Below are positions 3,621-11,819 of a stretch of DNA of 64,000 bases, piece by piece (within the stretch, counting starts at the first letter, position 1; each line of letters opens with the position of its first letter). Position numbers and translations under genes: made by a program. The notes beneath the pieces are model-generated. The model made no database searches. It was not told the DNA's origin and saw only the letters and a list, made by a program, of their open reading frames with translations. The stretch is from Escherichia phage vB_EcoM_ESCO10. Location of the stretch: sequence record OM386655.1; one strand, 5' to 3'.

Positions 3621-3905
3621 TTATTTCTTACAACCTACATATTTAGGCATATGGCAGAAAACAGAATCGGTAACTACTCGACCTTTGGCCCATGCTTCCT
3701 GTGCTTTACCGTGAGTAGTATTCACATAGCTGGATTTAATATTCTCGATACCTTGAGAATGTGATGCGTGTGCAGAACCATTAGAAGGACCTGCTGACTG
3801 ACTTGAACCTTGACCGCCCGGGCCTGATGTGCCTTCAGTAGCCAGTACACCAAAAGACATAACAGCGGCCAACAGGCCTATAGCCACTTTTAATTTTAAT
3901 TTCAT
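3621..3905 (-). CDS. small secreted protein (signal peptide, Gly/Ser-rich)
   Basis: N-terminal MKLKLKVAIGLLAAVMSFGVLA; AAAGGTG SD; hairpin+T-run terminator just downstream. Confidence 0.6.
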   Translation of the reverse strand: MKLKLKVAIGLLAAVMSFGVLATEGTSGPGGQGSSQSAGPSNGSAHASHSQGIENIKSSYVNTTHGKAQEAWAKGRVVTDSVFCHMPKYVGCKK

Positions 3906-7463: not shown

Positions 7464-7850
7464 TTATTCTAACGTTAACAAATACTTAGTTTGGTAAAAG
7501 ACACCAGTGATGTCGTCCAAAGTCGATTGGATGGCCTTAGGAAGATTTTTGTAGATTTTATCAGATGCTTTAATAAGTTCATCAAGAAAATCTATAGGGT
7601 CTTTAGGCAGTTCTGAAGCAGACGGCAGTGATGCTTTATATTCTTTGCCACTAAATCCTAGATACTGCTCACTGAACTGGTCTAGTGGTCCTTGAACTTC
7701 CGTATAATAGAAGTCGTATGCTTTGTGTCTTGCATAGCTTTTGGTTTCCAAATGGGCTGACTTAAAATAGGCTAAAGAAACCAATAGCCAGCCAATATAA
7801 GAATCTACTTCAGTCCCTCGACTAAGTACGAAATCATTGAATTTCATCAT
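7464..7850 (-). CDS. hypothetical protein (position of T4 rI.-1)
   Basis: 128-aa ORF downstream of rI-like gene; hairpin terminator follows. Confidence 0.5.
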   Translation of the reverse strand: MMKFNDFVLSRGTEVDSYIGWLLVSLAYFKSAHLETKSYARHKAYDFYYTEVQGPLDQFSEQYLGFSGKEYKASLPSASELPKDPIDFLDELIKASDKIYKNLPKAIQSTLDDITGVFYQTKYLLTLE

Positions 7851-8127
7851 CTACCTTCATTAGTTTAGCGTATCGTTCTCCGACCGCCCGACCTTCAATC
7901 GAGCAAGACTCTATTGTATTGCAATTTGAAAGTTTCCAAGAAGCAGTTACATAAGCCCAGTAGTCTTCAGAGGCCTTTACGCTAGGTTTACTCATTTGCG
8001 CATAAACTGGCATCGCACTACTAGCAAAGGCGTCCATCAATTTAGGATCGGATTTGTTTGCTAGTGAAACTGTTGGGCTTAAACATCCAATCATAAGGAT
8101 ACAAGCCACTGTACGGAAAATACCCAT
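7834..8127 (-). CDS. rI: lysis-inhibition regulator RI-like protein
   Basis: 97 aa as in T4 RI; N-terminal hydrophobic signal-anchor; adjacent to tk as in T4. Confidence 0.55.
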   Translation of the reverse strand: MGIFRTVACILMIGCLSPTVSLANKSDPKLMDAFASSAMPVYAQMSKPSVKASEDYWAYVTASWKLSNCNTIESCSIEGRAVGERYAKLMKVDDEIQ

Positions 8128-8217: not shown

Positions 8218-8225
8218 TATTTATA
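8218..8225 (-). promoter_or_regulatory. possible late promoter (TATAAATA) upstream of rI-like gene
   Basis: Exact minus-strand TATAAATA about 90 nt upstream of the start; overlaps the stop of the upstream ORF. Confidence 0.3.
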
Positions 8226-8499
8226 GCTTTTTAAGCTTACTACAATAAGCATAAAATACATCGTTAAAATTTTCAGAAACCCATCCACGCTGTATAGGCG
8301 AAGTAATTGAAAGCAGATAATGTGCTTTAATTAACTCCATCCCATTTTTATTAGGGCATTCTTTATTATTAGCATTATACGTCGCTGCTACAACCTCTAT
8401 CTCTCTTTTGTAAGCCGTATCATCCATGATAGGCAAAAGAACAATATAAGAAATAGCCACAGCTACCGCTAGAATTAAAATCTTTGAATTTAGGTCCAT
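8221..8499 (-). CDS. small membrane protein
   Basis: 92-aa ORF with N-terminal TM helix, between tk and rI-like gene. Confidence 0.5.
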   Translation of the reverse strand: MDLNSKILILAVAVAISYIVLLPIMDDTAYKREIEVVAATYNANNKECPNKNGMELIKAHYLLSITSPIQRGWVSENFNDVFYAYCSKLKKL

Positions 8500-8506
8500 A
8501 GTACCC

Positions 8507-9079
8507 TCAACTCGTTATTTCTATCCAATGCTTCCTGCACAATGACACGTAAGAATCGTTGCCACCTATAGAAACTTGGTCGCCGTCCTTAATTGCGATA
8601 CCATTTTGGATACGAGCTGTCATAGTAGCCTTACGTCCACAATGGCACACACCTTTGTACTCAACGAGTTTATCTGCTGTAGCTAATAATTCAGCAGAGC
8701 CAGGAAACAGTTTACCCTGAAAATCAGTTCTTAGACCGTAACACATGACCGGTATATTATAATTATCTACTATCTTTGCTAATTGTTTTATTTGCAAAGG
8801 TTCTAAGAACTGTGCTTCATCCACAAACACACAGTGGATATCTTTTTGAGATTCAGCCCAACGATAGAACTCGTATAGGTCCATATCTGGAGTCACTGCA
8901 TTAGCCTCTTGGCTAATCCCTATACGAGACGAAATTCTATGGCTTGATTCTCTATTATCTATCGCAGGCTTTAAAAGGAGTACACCCATACCACGTTCTT
9001 TGTAGTTATGGGCCGCCGTTAGCAATGAAGAGGTCTTCCCAGAATTCATCGCAGCATAATGGAAATAAAGTTGGGCCAT
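8507..9079 (-). CDS. tk: thymidine kinase
   Basis: P-loop AAMNSGKT; strong similarity to E. coli Tdk / T4 Tk (MAQLYF..., CYGLRTDF, CRKH) from memory. Confidence 0.95.
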   Translation of the reverse strand: MAQLYFHYAAMNSGKTSSLLTAAHNYKERGMGVLLLKPAIDNRESSHRISSRIGISQEANAVTPDMDLYEFYRWAESQKDIHCVFVDEAQFLEPLQIKQLAKIVDNYNIPVMCYGLRTDFQGKLFPGSAELLATADKLVEYKGVCHCGRKATMTARIQNGIAIKDGDQVSIGGNDSYVSLCRKHWIEITS

Positions 9080-9088
9080 ATTACCTTC

Positions 9089-9277
9089 TTAAAGACTATT
9101 TACATAAGCAATTAATTCGTTTTCTTTCTCATCAAACTGTTCGGCGATTTTTTCGTAATCTTCAGCGCTCACAGGACCCCATTCATCGTATGATTGCATT
9201 CCAGAATTCTCTTCTAGAAGCTCATGGATAAGCTCAAACAATTTATCTTTTTGTTCTTTACTTAGACTCATAACCAT
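9089..9277 (-). CDS. hypothetical small acidic protein
   Basis: Track ORF 9089..9292 starts at TTG; start moved to ATG 9277 behind AAGG SD. Confidence 0.45.
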   Translation of the reverse strand: MVMSLSKEQKDKLFELIHELLEENSGMQSYDEWGPVSAEDYEKIAEQFDEKENELIAYVNSL

Positions 9278-9480
9278 TGCACCTTTAAACAATATTCATC
9301 TACGTGTTGGACACGTTTGTTTTTGTCAATAAAAGTATATTCAACATACTCGCCAATATACCGCTTATCCACATTGTGAGGACTTTTTATAGGACACTTG
9401 GTTACTCGGGTTTCAGTCCAGTGTCGAATAATTTCTGCTTTGTTTTTAGGGTCAAACGGATGTGGGTAATGGGCTTTCAT
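9268..9480 (-). CDS. hypothetical protein
   Basis: 70-aa ORF; overlaps 3' end of macro-domain gene by 29 nt. Confidence 0.4.
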   Translation of the reverse strand: MKAHYPHPFDPKNKAEIIRHWTETRVTKCPIKSPHNVDKRYIGEYVEYTFIDKNKRVQHVDEYCLKVQWL

Positions 9481-9922
9481 AATCTACCACCACTAAATTA
9501 ATATCAGGAGTAAACAAATTAATCAATTGATAAACATTGTCCCAATCACCACCAGCAATACCACAGCCAATGCGAGGAATATAAATTCTCGGTTTAAACA
9601 AAAGACCCTTTGCAGTACGGTTTAATTCTATCATACAGTTTACTAAAGCACCATAATCAAGATTAGGACCTGGTTCATATTGCGTATAAAGATTATAGCA
9701 AATTTGGCCATTATTGCCTGTGGCTTGAGTAAATGTCCCAAGTTTTGCCGCATCACCTAAATAAGTGGCTTCTCTATCAATGGCAAGAATAGGTGAATAA
9801 GCCTTAGCCAATTGACCTGCTACGCCCGAACCCATAGTATGAAAACAGTTACACCCATGAGCAACGTTATTACCTTGAAGAAACAGGGCGACGATATCGC
9901 CCTTAATATAATCAATAATCAT
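9452..9922 (-). CDS. macro-domain protein (putative ADP-ribose binding/processing)
   Basis: N-x(5)-MGSGVAGQLAKA and IGCGIAGGDW resemble the two Gly-rich macro-domain motifs; ATGA overlap with upstream gene. Confidence 0.55.
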   Translation of the reverse strand: MIIDYIKGDIVALFLQGNNVAHGCNCFHTMGSGVAGQLAKAYSPILAIDREATYLGDAAKLGTFTQATGNNGQICYNLYTQYEPGPNLDYGALVNCMIELNRTAKGLLFKPRIYIPRIGCGIAGGDWDNVYQLINLFTPDINLVVVDYESPLPTSV

Positions 9923-10275
9923 TTAGAGTTTAGTCCTCGGTTGTAAGAGTCAACGAGTCTGTCTACCATAGACGCGCACATTTCTTTATACTTTTTATCA
10001 GATGGAACACATTCAGTAACATTTAGACGTTGCTCGTATCTTTTAGAAAGGGTTTTCTCTTTCATTCGACGATGCTCGACGTCATTCTGCCCGTCTTTAA
10101 AAGCAGCTGTTATTTTTGAACTGAATTCAATAACACATTCAGTATTACTTGGATGACAATAATCTTTTGCTGTACGGGTAGCATACTCGACAATTGAATT
10201 ATTGGTATCATCAACCTGTGACGCTAATACTCCCGGAGCAATCAACATAAGCGCTATAGTCATCTGTTTAATCAT
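9919..10275 (-). CDS. secreted Cys-containing protein (signal peptide)
   Basis: N-terminal MIKQMTIALMLIAPGVLASQV; abuts upstream stop. Confidence 0.5.
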   Translation of the reverse strand: MIKQMTIALMLIAPGVLASQVDDTNNSIVEYATRTAKDYCHPSNTECVIEFSSKITAAFKDGQNDVEHRRMKEKTLSKRYEQRLNVTECVPSDKKYKEMCASMVDRLVDSYNRGLNSK

Positions 10276-10815
10276 TTAATATACCGCCTCAAACATCTTT
10301 TTAGATTTTAGGTAATTGGCCTTTTCTAGAACTTCCGAAGCATATTTACTACCTGCTTTGGCATTCCAGCCTGCATTATAAGAAGCAATCGCTTTTCTCA
10401 GGTCACCTTTGTGAACATTAATCCAATACGACAGTTCAATGTAGGCCCAAGAGGCACTGTTCTGTCGGTTTTGGACCATACGAATTATTTCTTTATCTGA
10501 CATCTTCCAACCTACCTGTTTAACACGACTTCTTAACGTAGGCAAGTAATTTTGGAACATGCCATAAGCATGGTGCTTATCTTTATTTAAACCTTGATTA
10601 ATCCCAGCAGATGATTCCTGCCATAATAATCCAGCCATTATATATCCTAATCCTTTTTGATTAGGGGTTTCTTTGAACTTTCCCGACTTTTGGTATTGTT
10701 CACCGAAAGCATACGCGTAATGTAAATTATCGAGTTGTTCATTACTGAAAGTAGGCTCTACGCTATAGGCAGACATACTAACTGTCAATAGTAAAGTGGC
10801 TAATACTTTTTTCAT
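10276..10815 (-). CDS. lytic transglycosylase-like protein with signal peptide
   Basis: Signal peptide MKKVLATLLLTVSMSAYS; catalytic-region-like LWQESSAG...AYGMFQ and AYNAG motif typical of SLT domains. Confidence 0.6.
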   Translation of the reverse strand: MKKVLATLLLTVSMSAYSVEPTFSNEQLDNLHYAYAFGEQYQKSGKFKETPNQKGLGYIMAGLLWQESSAGINQGLNKDKHHAYGMFQNYLPTLRSRVKQVGWKMSDKEIIRMVQNRQNSASWAYIELSYWINVHKGDLRKAIASYNAGWNAKAGSKYASEVLEKANYLKSKKMFEAVY

Positions 10816-10827
10816 GAGACCTCATTA

Positions 10828-11286
10828 TTAAAGATAGATTACTTTAGTGCTCGTTTTACCTTCTAAACGTTTAGAGTTAACAAATGCCATACGACATTTT
10901 AATGAATATCCTTTATCAGGATGTTTACGATCTACAGTCATACCTAACCATAAGGTTTTATCGGTAATCTCGAGACGCAGTGGACGATACACTTTACCTG
11001 GGACAATTTCAGATTCTACATCAGGCATAGGTTCCTGGATTAAAAATTCATGGATTTCTTTAACATGGTTATGGAGTTGCTTGAATAAAGCAAAAACGTA
11101 TTTTTCGTCAATTTCACGTTGGATAGCACGGTCCAATAGGTGATTAGAGTACTTAATAAAGAAAGCTGGGACTCCACTCTTAATGGCGGCTTTTTTGATG
11201 GATGTATTCAGTTCACGAAATTCGGTTTCGAACTGACGACGTAATTTGTTGCGGCGGATGAATACTTCTGAATTAATTTCTGACAT
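10828..11286 (-). CDS. regB: RegB site-specific endoribonuclease
   Basis: 152 aa; strong similarity to T4 RegB (EVFIRRNKLRR...HLLDRAIQREIDE) from memory; AGGAGAAA SD; early-promoter cassette. Confidence 0.85.
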   Translation of the reverse strand: MSEINSEVFIRRNKLRRQFETEFRELNTSIKKAAIKSGVPAFFIKYSNHLLDRAIQREIDEKYVFALFKQLHNHVKEIHEFLIQEPMPDVESEIVPGKVYRPLRLEITDKTLWLGMTVDRKHPDKGYSLKCRMAFVNSKRLEGKTSTKVIYL

Positions 11287-11313
11287 TTTGTTTCTCCTGT
11301 AGTTGATAGGTTT

Positions 11314-11342
11314 ATAGTATCATGCCTACAGGAGATGTAAAC
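11314..11342 (-). promoter_or_regulatory. early promoter cassette upstream of regB
   Basis: GTTTAC 11337..11342, TACTAT 11314..11319; inverted repeat CCTGTAG/CTACAGG (11296..11302, 11326..11332) overlapping the SD. Confidence 0.6.
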
Positions 11343-11346
11343 TGCT

Positions 11347-11556
11347 TTATTCTTGGAATGGTGTGAGTTTTCCAGCTATCGAACAAATTTCTACCATTGC
11401 AGGATAAAACTCTTTCACTTGTTCAAGGCGCTGGACAGCGTACCGCATTTCGCCTTCTTCAAGACAAGCAACCTGGTCATCGAGCAAATATTTGTGGTAA
11501 CCGGTACAGGCTTCGCTAATGATACGTTGGAATTCTTGCAAACTTTCAATTTTCAC
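11347..11556 (-). CDS. hypothetical protein
   Basis: Track ORF 11347..11598 overlaps upstream gene; proposed GTG start at 11556 behind GAGGAAAAA SD; start uncertain. Confidence 0.4.
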   Translation of the reverse strand: MKIESLQEFQRIISEACTGYHKYLLDDQVACLEEGEMRYAVQRLEQVKEFYPAMVEICSIAGKLTPFQE

Positions 11557-11819
11557 TAGTATTTTTCCTCGGGTCGAAATACTGCACGACATGCCCACAT
11601 GCTGGCTTCTTTTAGATGTTGCTTAGCATACTTAAGAGCCTGCACCGCATCCATATCTTCTTTGGTTTGTTGCTCTGTTTCATTTTCTTTCAAGATATAT
11701 GCTTCTTCAATCAGAGCATCAAACATCAATCCAAGACGGACTTCTGCATCTTTAATAGCGTTCACTTTACCGATTTTATCGTCGGTATGCGGCTTGTAAC
11801 CTTTGATGTCTTCAATCAT
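11556..11819 (-). CDS. hypothetical protein
   Basis: 87-aa ORF; ATGA overlap with upstream gene. Confidence 0.5.
   Translation of the reverse strand: MIEDIKGYKPHTDDKIGKVNAIKDAEVRLGLMFDALIEEAYILKENETEQQTKEDMDAVQALKYAKQHLKEASMWACRAVFRPEEKY

What the first reader, a model, noticed from the sequence alone, without database searches (positions are those of the whole stretch)
10276..11286. Secreted lytic-transglycosylase-like protein encoded directly downstream of regB
Gene 10276-10815 encodes a signal peptide followed by SLT-like motifs (ES...GMFQ, AYNAG). The next gene, 9919-10275, also has a signal peptide. A periplasmic peptidoglycan-cleaving enzyme made early, separate from the endolysin, could act in cell-wall remodelling or superinfection control. 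The upstream RegB nuclease is known in T4 to cleave GGAG in early-gene SD sequences, and many SDs in this block are GGAG-type.
Basis: partly seen in the sequence, partly recalled or inferred. Interest (0 to 1): 0.4.

Follow-up and report, generated by a model that had tools for sequence, protein, structure and literature searches.

The report
Exported cell-wall-cutting enzyme Vs.1 of T4-like phage
This gene is the counterpart of phage T4's vs.1, an early-made enzyme-like protein predicted to be exported to the space around the bacterial cell wall and to cut wall glycan strands; the resemblance was already noted in the literature, so the finding is correct but not new, although what the protein does in infection has never been tested.

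Summary
On the minus strand the window carries regB (10828-11286), vs.1 (10276-10815) and vs (9919-10275). The window is about 98.5% identical to Escherichia phage vb_EcoM-VR5, and the gene order matches T4.

The SLT similarity was published in 2006, and at least one GenBank record already annotates the secretion signal. Novelty is therefore low.

Only regB itself has GGAG in its Shine-Dalgarno region within the local block.

The most interesting result goes beyond the finding. In 54 of 54 Straboviridae-type loci, vs.1 is followed within -8 to +7 nt by vs. Vs is labelled "valyl-tRNA synthetase modifier", yet its family has a conserved signal peptide and four invariant cysteines. In published T4 transposon data, vs.1 and vs share a fitness defect that their neighbours lack. 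The infection role of Vs.1 remains untested.

The parts
11314..11342 (-). Early-type promoter-like site upstream of regB (GTTTAC/TTTACA, 16-17 nt spacer, TACTAT). It lies in the only intergenic gap of the block.
   Evidence: Consensus scan (the scan as a whole is not above chance). The position and both hexamers align with the T4 regB upstream region. Function is inferred.
10828..11286 (-). regB, the site-specific RNA endonuclease. Its own SD contains GGAG (at 11297).
   Evidence: Pfam REGB_T4 5.6e-69; phrog_1323 5.7e-72. GGAG positions.
10276..10815 (-). vs.1: 179-aa exported GH23/SLT-fold protein, predicted lytic transglycosylase. Predicted mature form is residues 19-179, 18.5 kDa, pI 9.5, no Cys.
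10762..10815 (-). Predicted Sec signal peptide of Vs.1 (residues 1-18, MKKVLATLLLTVSMSAYS|VEP).
   Evidence: Rule-based test and conservation of the pattern in 36 of 38 relatives. Low sequence identity with kept hydrophobicity. Low-confidence detached helix in the model.
10615..10617 (-). Codon of Glu67, the candidate catalytic acid in the E-S-S motif.
   Evidence: Invariant in 38 and in 61 sequences. Aligned to the Glu of the EtgA AIAWNES segment and the Glu of the g-type lysozyme IISRES segment.
10552..10563 (-). G85-M-F-Q88, equivalent to SLT motif II (GLMQ).
   Evidence: G85, Q88 and N89 are invariant in A1.
10369..10383 (-). S145-Y-N-A-G149, equivalent to SLT motif III (AYNxG). Invariant Tyr158 follows it.
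   Evidence: Y146, G149 and Y158 are invariant in 61 sequences.
9919..10275 (-). vs: 118-aa protein annotated as valyl-tRNA synthetase modifier. Its start codon directly abuts the vs.1 stop. It has a predicted signal peptide (residues 1-19, nt 10219-10275) and four invariant Cys in the mature part.
   Evidence: phrog_1256 4.3e-34. Family alignment. T4 Vs has the same features. It is the +1 gene after vs.1 in 54 of 54 loci, at -8 to +7 nt.

Best explanation
The gene at 10276-10815 is the ortholog of phage T4 vs.1.

Proposed mechanism, step by step:
1. It is transcribed in the prereplicative period together with regB, from the conserved early promoter upstream of regB. (Inferred from sequence conservation with T4 and from T4 omics.)
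2. It is translated with a cleavable Sec signal peptide, exported, and released as a soluble, basic periplasmic protein of about 18.5 kDa. (Predicted.)
3. Its single domain has the GH23/SLT lysozyme-like fold. (Shown by fold search on the predicted model.)
4. With the invariant Glu67 as the only conserved acid, it most likely cleaves the MurNAc-beta-1,4-GlcNAc bond of peptidoglycan as a lytic transglycosylase, giving 1,6-anhydro-MurNAc ends. (Inferred.)
5. It acts in a limited, non-lytic way, like the small exported 'specialised' transglycosylases (EtgA, VirB1, IagB) rather than like an endolysin. (Inferred.)

It is translationally coupled to vs, a second exported small protein. The two form a conserved module that contributes to phage fitness but is dispensable on laboratory E. 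coli.
For: Orthology and synteny:
- The window has regB-vs.1-vs-tk.4-tk.3-tk.2-tk, as in T4.
- 66% identity to T4 Vs.1.
- tblastn finds a homolog in 2015 phage records.

Fold:
- AF2 pLDDT 86.3.
- Foldseek's top hits are the same families.

Sequence:
- SLT Pfam hits in 34 of 38 and 39 of 61 relatives.
- Profile hit to EtgA at 4.4e-7.
- E67, Y146, G149 and Y158 are invariant.
- No conserved second acidic residue appears at the positions of EtgA D60 or the g-lysozyme Asp residues (my reading of the alignments).

Export:
-.
- An independent GenBank annotation reads 'putative lytic murein transglycosylase, putative periplasmic secretion signal' for the Acinetobacter phage Berthold ortholog.

Timing:
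- Promoter conserved with T4.
- T4 vs.1 is classed early RNA / middle protein and is detected as protein (PMC9697503 supplement).

Dispensable but not neutral (HIDEN-SEQ preprint 10.1101/2025.11.20.689424):
- T4 vs.1 is classed 'non-essential', with 46 of 52 TA sites hit.
- Mean insertion counts in vs.1 (15-76) and vs (27-103) are several-fold to more than ten-fold below flanking genes (regB about 180-230, tk.4 about 260-290, vs.3 about 630-650) in liquid competitions.

Non-lytic role: established knowledge that T4 gene e (endolysin) mutants fail to lyse, so Vs.1 cannot replace the endolysin.
Against: - No enzymatic assay exists for any family member that I could find.
- The single-sequence Pfam score is below the gathering cut-off.
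- Foldseek E-values are weak (about 0.03).
- Signal-peptide cleavage is predicted by rules only.
- A review of T4 lysozymes states that T4 has two genes coding for lysozyme activity, e and 5 (PMC7650644 abstract). No muralytic activity has been ascribed to Vs.1.
- The transposon phenotypes of vs.1 may be partly polar effects on vs.
- Nothing here shows what the enzyme is for.
Confidence: 0.72

Rival explanations
1. Vs.1 and Vs form a periplasmic enzyme-partner pair. Vs would be an exported disulfide-bonded regulator (inhibitor, activator or targeting factor) of the Vs.1 transglycosylase. The 'valyl-tRNA synthetase modifier' label would then not describe, or not fully describe, what Vs does.
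For: - Vs is the immediately downstream gene in 54 of 54 Straboviridae-type loci, with -8 to +7 nt spacing.
- All 27 Vs-bearing IMG/VR contigs are contigs that also carry vs.1.
- The Vs family has a conserved signal-peptide-like N-terminus and four invariant Cys, in E. coli, Acinetobacter, Proteus-type and other phages.
- vs.1 and vs share a fitness defect that their neighbours lack.
- In M9, vs insertions are hit harder (log2FC -2.19, adj p 0) than vs.1 insertions (-0.87, adj p 0.155). That pattern would fit an unrestrained enzyme when only the partner is lost.
Against: - Classical genetics and biochemistry (from my own knowledge; not readable with these tools) tie vs to a roughly 10-kDa factor bound to host valyl-tRNA synthetase, which is cytoplasmic.
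- Gene adjacency in a compact phage genome is weak evidence for interaction.
- Distant vs.1 homologs exist without vs.
- The M9 phenotype has a ready explanation through amino-acid supply, which is the preprint's own reading.
Confidence: 0.2
2. Vs.1 is a muramidase (hydrolase) of the goose-type lysozyme kind rather than a lytic transglycosylase.
For: - Goose-type lysozymes are among the best sequence-profile and fold matches.
- GH23 contains both hydrolases and transglycosylases, and sequence alone does not separate them cleanly.
- EtgA, the best sequence hit, is described as a hybrid of both types (my own knowledge; PDB entry 4xp8 is a D60N mutant).
Against: - No conserved Asp at the positions of the auxiliary acidic residues. 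Those positions hold nearly invariant Ala83 and Tyr90 (alignment reading).
- The E-S / G-x-x-Q / Y-N-A-G / Y motif set is that of family 1 transglycosylases.
Confidence: 0.13
3. Vs.1 is a membrane-tethered (signal-anchor-release type) or secreted auxiliary endolysin that takes part in host lysis at the end of infection.
For: - In Felixounavirus relatives the homolog lies near rIIB and the spanin genes, and some records call it 'putative lysin'.
- In Acinetobacter phages it heads a cluster ending in rI.
- In the window rI lies 2.1 kb downstream.
Against: - The uncharged N-terminal stretch is only 16 residues. It has a strongly hydrophobic 9-residue core and a polar c-region with small -3/-1 residues, which is typical of a cleaved signal peptide rather than a Gly/Ala-rich SAR domain (inference).
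- It is expressed early in T4.
- T4 endolysin (e) mutants do not lyse (established knowledge).
- T4 vs.1 is non-essential.
Confidence: 0.07
4. Vs.1 serves superinfection control or lysis inhibition signalling.
For: - Early expression and periplasmic location resemble Sp and Imm.
- It clusters with rI and phrog_6298 in Acinetobacter phages.
- vs.1 insertions are significantly depleted on a wild E. coli isolate: CFE299, log2FC -1.20, adj p 0.015.
Against: - There is no direct evidence.
- Known T4 exclusion is explained by Imm and Sp, with Sp inhibiting the gp5 lysozyme (PMC7677548 abstract).
- A wall-cutting enzyme would if anything ease entry of a second phage.
Confidence: 0.1
5. Vs.1 is a catalytically dead SLT-fold protein that only binds peptidoglycan or another periplasmic partner.
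For: No activity has ever been reported. The Pfam score is marginal.
Against: The Glu and the substrate-groove motifs are invariant over relatives down to about 25% identity. That is not expected for a pseudo-enzyme.
Confidence: 0.05

Closest known systems
Phage T4 Vs.1 (UniProt P13311; PHROG 600), conserved ORF of T4-like phages
   Same: - Full-length homology (66% identity; phrog_600 3.6e-67).
- Same length.
- Same position between regB and vs.
- Same signal peptide and motifs.
   Different: Nothing of substance. This is the Dhakavirus-type ortholog. T4 Vs.1 itself has no experimentally assigned function.
Specialised lytic transglycosylases of secretion systems (EtgA of the EPEC type III system; relatives IagB, IpgF, VirB1)
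   Same: - Small single-domain GH23 proteins with a Sec signal peptide.
- Aligned catalytic Glu in an (A)IAW-x-ES context.
   Different: - Not encoded in a secretion-system or pilus cluster.
- No known envelope-spanning machine to make room for.
- The Asp that EtgA uses in addition to Glu (D60) has no conserved counterpart.
Family 1 bacterial lytic transglycosylases (Slt70, MltC, MltD, MltE, MltF; Pfam SLT PF01464, CAZy GH23)
   Different: - Much smaller, with no accessory domains.
- Not a lipoprotein.
- Phage-encoded.
- The single sequence is below the Pfam gathering score.
Goose-type lysozymes (GH23 hydrolases)
   Different: The auxiliary Asp residues are not conserved. These are eukaryotic secreted hydrolases.
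T4 periplasmic early proteins Spackle (Sp) and RI
   Same: Early-made, signal-peptide-bearing, periplasmic phage proteins that act on the envelope. rI lies 2.1 kb downstream in the window and is contiguous with the vs.1 cluster in Acinetobacter phages.
   Different: No sequence or fold relation. Sp inhibits a lysozyme and RI inhibits the holin, whereas Vs.1 looks like an enzyme.

Membership tests
T4 Vs.1 family (PHROG 600) | Full-length sequence homology to T4 Vs.1 | tested here: met
   phrog_600 E 3.6e-67, residues 1-177 of 179. 66% identity to T4.
T4 Vs.1 family (PHROG 600) | Position between regB and vs in the prereplicative gene block | tested here: met
   Window order is regB-vs.1-vs-tk.4, as in T4. 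regB is upstream in 49 of 66 loci and Vs is downstream in 54 of 54 Straboviridae-type loci.
GH23 / Pfam SLT (family 1 lytic transglycosylases) | Score above the Pfam SLT gathering threshold | tested here: not met
   18.5 bits against a cut-off of 21.3, E 0.0015 for this sequence. Relatives do match at E<=0.01 (34 of 38 and 39 of 61, best 2.2e-10).
GH23 / Pfam SLT (family 1 lytic transglycosylases) | Lysozyme-like alpha-helical GH23 fold | tested here: met
GH23 / Pfam SLT (family 1 lytic transglycosylases) | Catalytic Glu in the E-S motif | tested here: met
   E67-S68 is invariant or nearly invariant in 61 sequences. It aligns with the Glu of the EtgA AIAWNES segment and the g-lysozyme IISRES segment.
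GH23 / Pfam SLT (family 1 lytic transglycosylases) | Motifs G-L-M-Q and A-Y-N-x-G plus a downstream Tyr | tested here: met
   G85-M-F-Q88 and S145-Y-N-A-G149 are present. Y146, G149 and Y158 are invariant.
GH23 / Pfam SLT (family 1 lytic transglycosylases) | Non-hydrolytic cleavage giving 1,6-anhydro-MurNAc | not testable with these tools
   Needs enzyme assay and muropeptide mass spectrometry.
Specialised secretion-system transglycosylases (EtgA/IagB/VirB1 type) | Small single-domain GH23 protein with a Sec signal peptide | tested here: met
   179 aa, one domain, predicted signal peptide. EtgA is the best PDB profile hit.
Specialised secretion-system transglycosylases (EtgA/IagB/VirB1 type) | Encoded within, and serving, an envelope-spanning secretion or pilus system | tested here: not met
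   Neighbours are regB, vs, the tk.4 macro domain, tk and rI. No secretion-system genes are present.
Goose-type lysozyme (GH23 hydrolase) | Auxiliary acidic residues after the catalytic Glu | tested here: not met
   Apart from E67, the only other acidic column invariant in A1 is E127, outside this segment; the region following the Glu holds A83, G85, Q88, N89 and Y90. This rests on alignment reading, not superposition.
SAR (signal-anchor-release) endolysins | Long, weakly hydrophobic Gly/Ala-rich N-terminal membrane domain; late expression in a lysis cassette | tested here: not met
   A 16-residue uncharged stretch with the core VLATLLLTV and a polar c-region with small -3/-1 residues. Early-class gene in T4. 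No holin is adjacent.
Sec-exported periplasmic proteins | Tripartite cleavable signal peptide (basic n-region, hydrophobic h-region, c-region obeying the -3/-1 rule) | tested here: met
   Rule-based script. 36 of 38 relatives pass, against 6 of 94 window genes. SignalP was not available and export has not been shown experimentally.

The most novel reading that the evidence does not exclude
vs.1 and vs are a conserved, translationally coupled, exported two-gene module of Straboviridae: a periplasmic transglycosylase plus a small disulfide-bonded partner.

On this reading the protein known for fifty years as the 'valyl-tRNA synthetase modifier' is, at least in part, a periplasmic protein that works with or controls the wall-cutting enzyme. 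Its minimal-medium phenotype would then be an envelope phenotype rather than a translation phenotype.
Probability: 0.2. Interest if true: 0.6.

Novelty: already known. Interest (0 to 1): 0.3.

Why it matters
As stated, the finding re-discovers a published annotation. T4 vs.1 was linked to lysozyme/SLT domains by 2003-2006 (PMC1524935), and some GenBank records already name it a secreted transglycosylase.

It still marks a real gap. T4 is usually said to have two muralytic genes, e and 5. Vs.1 would be a third wall-cutting enzyme, made early and exported. It is conserved in more than 2000 phage genomes across several families, and it has a measurable fitness effect but no known role.

The conserved coupling to vs is cheap to test. 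The conflict between the predicted export of Vs and its textbook cytoplasmic function could be settled by fractionation and N-terminal mapping. The answer could change how one of the oldest T4 gene names is understood.

Tried and rejected
- **Single-sequence search of solved structures.** It gave only chance hits to a chloroplast membrane protein (E about 0.1). The 38-sequence profile gave sub-threshold g-lysozyme hits. Only the wider 61-sequence profile reached significance, against EtgA.
- **NCBIfam.** Nothing for Vs.1 or Vs.
- **The search for related loci with the wide alignment.** It failed for lack of a conserved stretch. The closer alignment worked.
- **Literature searches.**
  - Four searches on vs.1 returned one relevant paper (PMC1524935).
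  - A fifth vs.1 search was swamped by clinical 'vs. 1' text.
  - Nothing was found on a Vs signal peptide.
  - The T4 genome review (PMC150520) is not held.
- **RegB link.** Rejected. GGAG is in the SD of regB only within the local block and is not enriched in prereplicative genes.
- **Lipoprotein reading.** Rejected for this protein: there is no Cys anywhere in it.
- **Hairpin just after vs (9885-9903).** Considered as a terminator. It is conserved in T4 but lies in the conserved KGDIVAL coding stretch of tk.4, and its fold z-score is only -2.0. Left open.

Full report
**What is in the sequence**

All genes of the region lie on the minus strand:

| Gene | Coordinates | Evidence |
|---|---|---|
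| regB | 10828-11286 | Pfam REGB_T4 5.6e-69 |
| 179-aa ORF (vs.1) | 10276-10815 | see below |
| 118-aa ORF (vs) | 9919-10275 | see below |
| macro-domain gene | 9452-9922 | Pfam Macro 8.9e-07, phrog_335 |
| two small ORFs | 9268-9480, 9089-9277 | phrog_2008 and phrog_653, unknown function |
| thymidine kinase | 8507-9079 | gene-order match to T4 tk |
| membrane ORF | 8221-8499 | phrog_6298 |
| rI | 7834-8127 | phrog_1246, lysis inhibition |

The stretch is 98.5% identical in DNA to Escherichia phage vb_EcoM-VR5 and about 91-93% identical to IME08, Bp7, QL01 and other phages of that group. The gene order equals that of T4: regB, vs.1, vs, tk.4, tk.3, tk.2, tk.1, tk, rI.1, rI. The genes in question are the orthologs of T4 vs.1 (66% identity; phrog_600, 3.6e-67) and T4 vs (45% identity; phrog_1256, 4.3e-34).

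**Signal peptide**

Vs.1 starts MKK-VLATLLLTV-SMSAYS|VEP. This gives a +2 n-region, a 9-residue strongly hydrophobic core, and a polar c-region with small residues at -3/-1.

- SignalP was not available, so I applied a simple rule set to 38 relatives. Thirty-six pass. The other two have longer called N-termini with an internal Met followed by the same pattern.
- In the window only 6 of 94 crudely called genes pass. They include vs.1, vs and rI.
- The N-terminal 18 residues are poorly conserved in sequence (29% mean pairwise identity, against 54% for the rest) while their hydrophobic character is kept.
- In the AlphaFold2 model they form a detached low-confidence helix.
- There is no later membrane segment and no Cys, so this is not a lipoprotein.
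- The uncharged stretch is 16 residues long. I take that to fit a cleaved signal better than a signal-anchor-release domain. This is inference.
- The annotators of Acinetobacter phage Berthold independently wrote 'putative lytic murein transglycosylase, putative periplasmic secretion signal' for its ortholog.

**Enzyme domain**

The Pfam SLT match of this one sequence is below threshold (18.5 against 21.3 bits). Family-level evidence is much stronger.

- 34 of 38 close relatives and 39 of 61 distant relatives match SLT (best 2.2e-10).
- An exhaustive profile search found 493 representative clusters at E<=0.001. Most listed hits are 160-200 aa single-domain proteins.
- Across 61 of them (down to 25% identity) the invariant residues are Q27, E67, Y146, G149 and Y158.
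- In the closer set, W65, S69, G85, Q88 and N89 are also invariant.
- These residues make up the E-S, G-x-x-Q and Y-N-A-G motifs of family 1 lytic transglycosylases.
- The wide profile hits the solved structure of EtgA, the exported transglycosylase of the EPEC type III secretion system, at E 4.4e-7. The alignment pairs AIAW-x-ES with AIAWNES.
- Goose-type lysozymes follow, with the Glu aligned to the Glu of their IISRES segment.
- I see no conserved second acidic residue where EtgA has D60 or g-type lysozymes have their Asp residues (alignment reading). This favours a single-Glu transglycosylase mechanism, but only product analysis can decide.

**Expression**

The only intergenic gap of the block (11287-11346) holds GTTTAC-N17-TACTAT. 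It aligns hexamer for hexamer with the region upstream of T4 regB. The vs.1 start follows regB after 12 nt, and the vs start codon abuts the vs.1 stop (TAA-ATG). In T4, both vs.1 and vs are classed as early RNA / middle protein, and both are detected as proteins (supplement of PMC9697503). 'Made early' is therefore supported by homology.

**The RegB remark**

GGAG lies in the SD of regB itself (11297), inside regB (11175) and inside vs (10233). The SDs of vs.1 (GAGG) and vs (GAGG) do not contain it. GGAG occurs within 20 nt upstream of the start in 1 of 13 genes of the local block, 11 of 58 prereplicative-strand genes and 8 of 28 structural genes. There is no enrichment, and nothing ties Vs.1 to RegB beyond synteny. 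regB is the upstream neighbour in 49 of 66 loci. Acinetobacter phages keep vs.1-vs without it.

**What is already known**

Nolan et al. [quoted passage not shown] All six orthologs studied matched, and the paper noted earlier PSI-BLAST matches of T4 vs.1 to lysozyme (PMC1524935). UniRef and several GenBank records name relatives 'Transglycosylase SLT domain-containing protein'.

I found no paper with an enzymatic or genetic study of Vs.1. [quoted passage not shown]

A 2025 preprint gives the first functional data (10.1101/2025.11.20.689424):
- T4 vs.1 is 'non-essential', with 46 of 52 TA sites hit.
- In its supplementary competition tables, mean insertion counts in vs.1 (15-76) and vs (27-103) are several-fold to more than ten-fold below those of the flanking genes (regB 180-230, tk.4 260-290, vs.3 630-650).
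- From LB to M9, vs drops by log2 -2.19 (adj p 0) and vs.1 by -0.87 (adj p 0.155).
- On the wild isolate CFE299, vs.1 drops by -1.20 (adj p 0.015).
- Reading these rows as a shared phenotype is my own interpretation. Polar effects of insertions in vs.1 on vs cannot be excluded.

**The neighbour vs**

The Vs family is annotated 'valyl-tRNA synthetase modifier'. It has a conserved signal-peptide-like N-terminus (T4: MTKILVLCIGLISFSASASA|DTS) and four invariant cysteines in the mature part, which is about 11 kDa.

A profile built from divergent members finds a Vs gene as the very next gene after vs.1 in 54 of 54 Straboviridae-type loci, spaced -8 to +7 nt. In several lineages simple pairwise search had not recognised these genes as Vs. 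The 12 loci without Vs are the distant vs.1 homologs (25-35% identity; they include Felixounavirus and Kuttervirus loci L003-L004). All Vs-bearing contigs found independently also carry vs.1.

In Acinetobacter phages the order is vs.1, vs, phrog_4957, phrog_6298, rI, and all five genes have predicted export signals. In the window and in T4 the cytoplasmic tk.4-tk genes sit between vs and phrog_6298/rI.

An exported, disulfide-type Vs is hard to reconcile with binding to a cytoplasmic synthetase. I could not read the classical papers and found no discussion of this. The Vs model gave no informative fold match. I therefore record the idea of a Vs.1-Vs periplasmic pair as the most novel reading not excluded, at about 0.2.

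**Verdict**

The RegB/GGAG link is not. The feature is the known T4 gene vs.1 with a known domain annotation, so novelty is low and interest is modest. The open points are the untested activity and role of Vs.1 and its conserved coupling to an apparently exported Vs.

Noticed in passing
window 9919-10275 (-), and T4 locus L001 2501-2848: The gene annotated 'valyl-tRNA synthetase modifier' (vs) encodes a conserved signal-peptide-like N-terminus and four invariant Cys (C40, C47, C89, C100). This pattern is typical of an exported disulfide-bonded protein and is at odds with a cytoplasmic partner. Cleavage would leave about 11 kDa.
   Followed up: partly
L001-L056 (66 loci in all), vs.1/vs junction; window 10275/10276: vs directly follows vs.1 in 54 of 54 Straboviridae-type loci, with -8 to +7 nt between stop and start. 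This includes lineages where the downstream gene is too diverged for pairwise search to recognise it as Vs.
   Followed up: yes
L002 (Acinetobacter phage Berthold) 2474-4320; also L054-L056: Contiguous cluster of five genes with predicted export signals: vs.1, vs, phrog_4957, phrog_6298, rI. In the window the same phrog_6298 (8221-8499) and rI (7834-8127) are separated from vs by the tk.4-tk genes.
   Followed up: partly
public records: L003 1290-1838 (Salmonella phage Mushroom); Erwinia phage Tian (H56); UniRef names of P0019 and P0055: Several vs.1 homologs are mislabelled 'T4 RegB-like', 'endoribonuclease' or 'site-specific RNA endonuclease'. The label was apparently transferred from the neighbouring regB gene.
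   Followed up: no
window 9452-9922 (-): The tk.4 macro-domain gene has a weak NCBIfam similarity to the DarG antitoxin. A 2025 preprint names the T4 ortholog AdfM and reports that it protects against DarTG2.
   Followed up: partly
window 11556-11819 (-): The vs.4 ortholog carries the Acb2/Tad1 hairpin domain (Pfam 6.2e-18), an anti-CBASS/Thoeris nucleotide sponge. The vs.1-vs pair is thus flanked by anti-defence genes on both sides.
   Followed up: no
window 9885-9903 (-): An 8-bp GC-rich hairpin followed by a T-rich run lies 16 nt after the vs stop, inside the first codons of tk.4. It is conserved in T4 with a compensating G-U. It also encodes the conserved KGDIVAL stretch, and its fold z-score is only -2.0. 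It could attenuate transcription after vs or be coding coincidence.
   Followed up: partly
window 3621-3905 (-): Another small gene with a clear signal peptide (MKLKLKVAIGLLAAVMSFGVLA|TEG) and a Gly/Ser/Pro-rich mature part. It belongs to phrog_2243, of unknown function.
   Followed up: no
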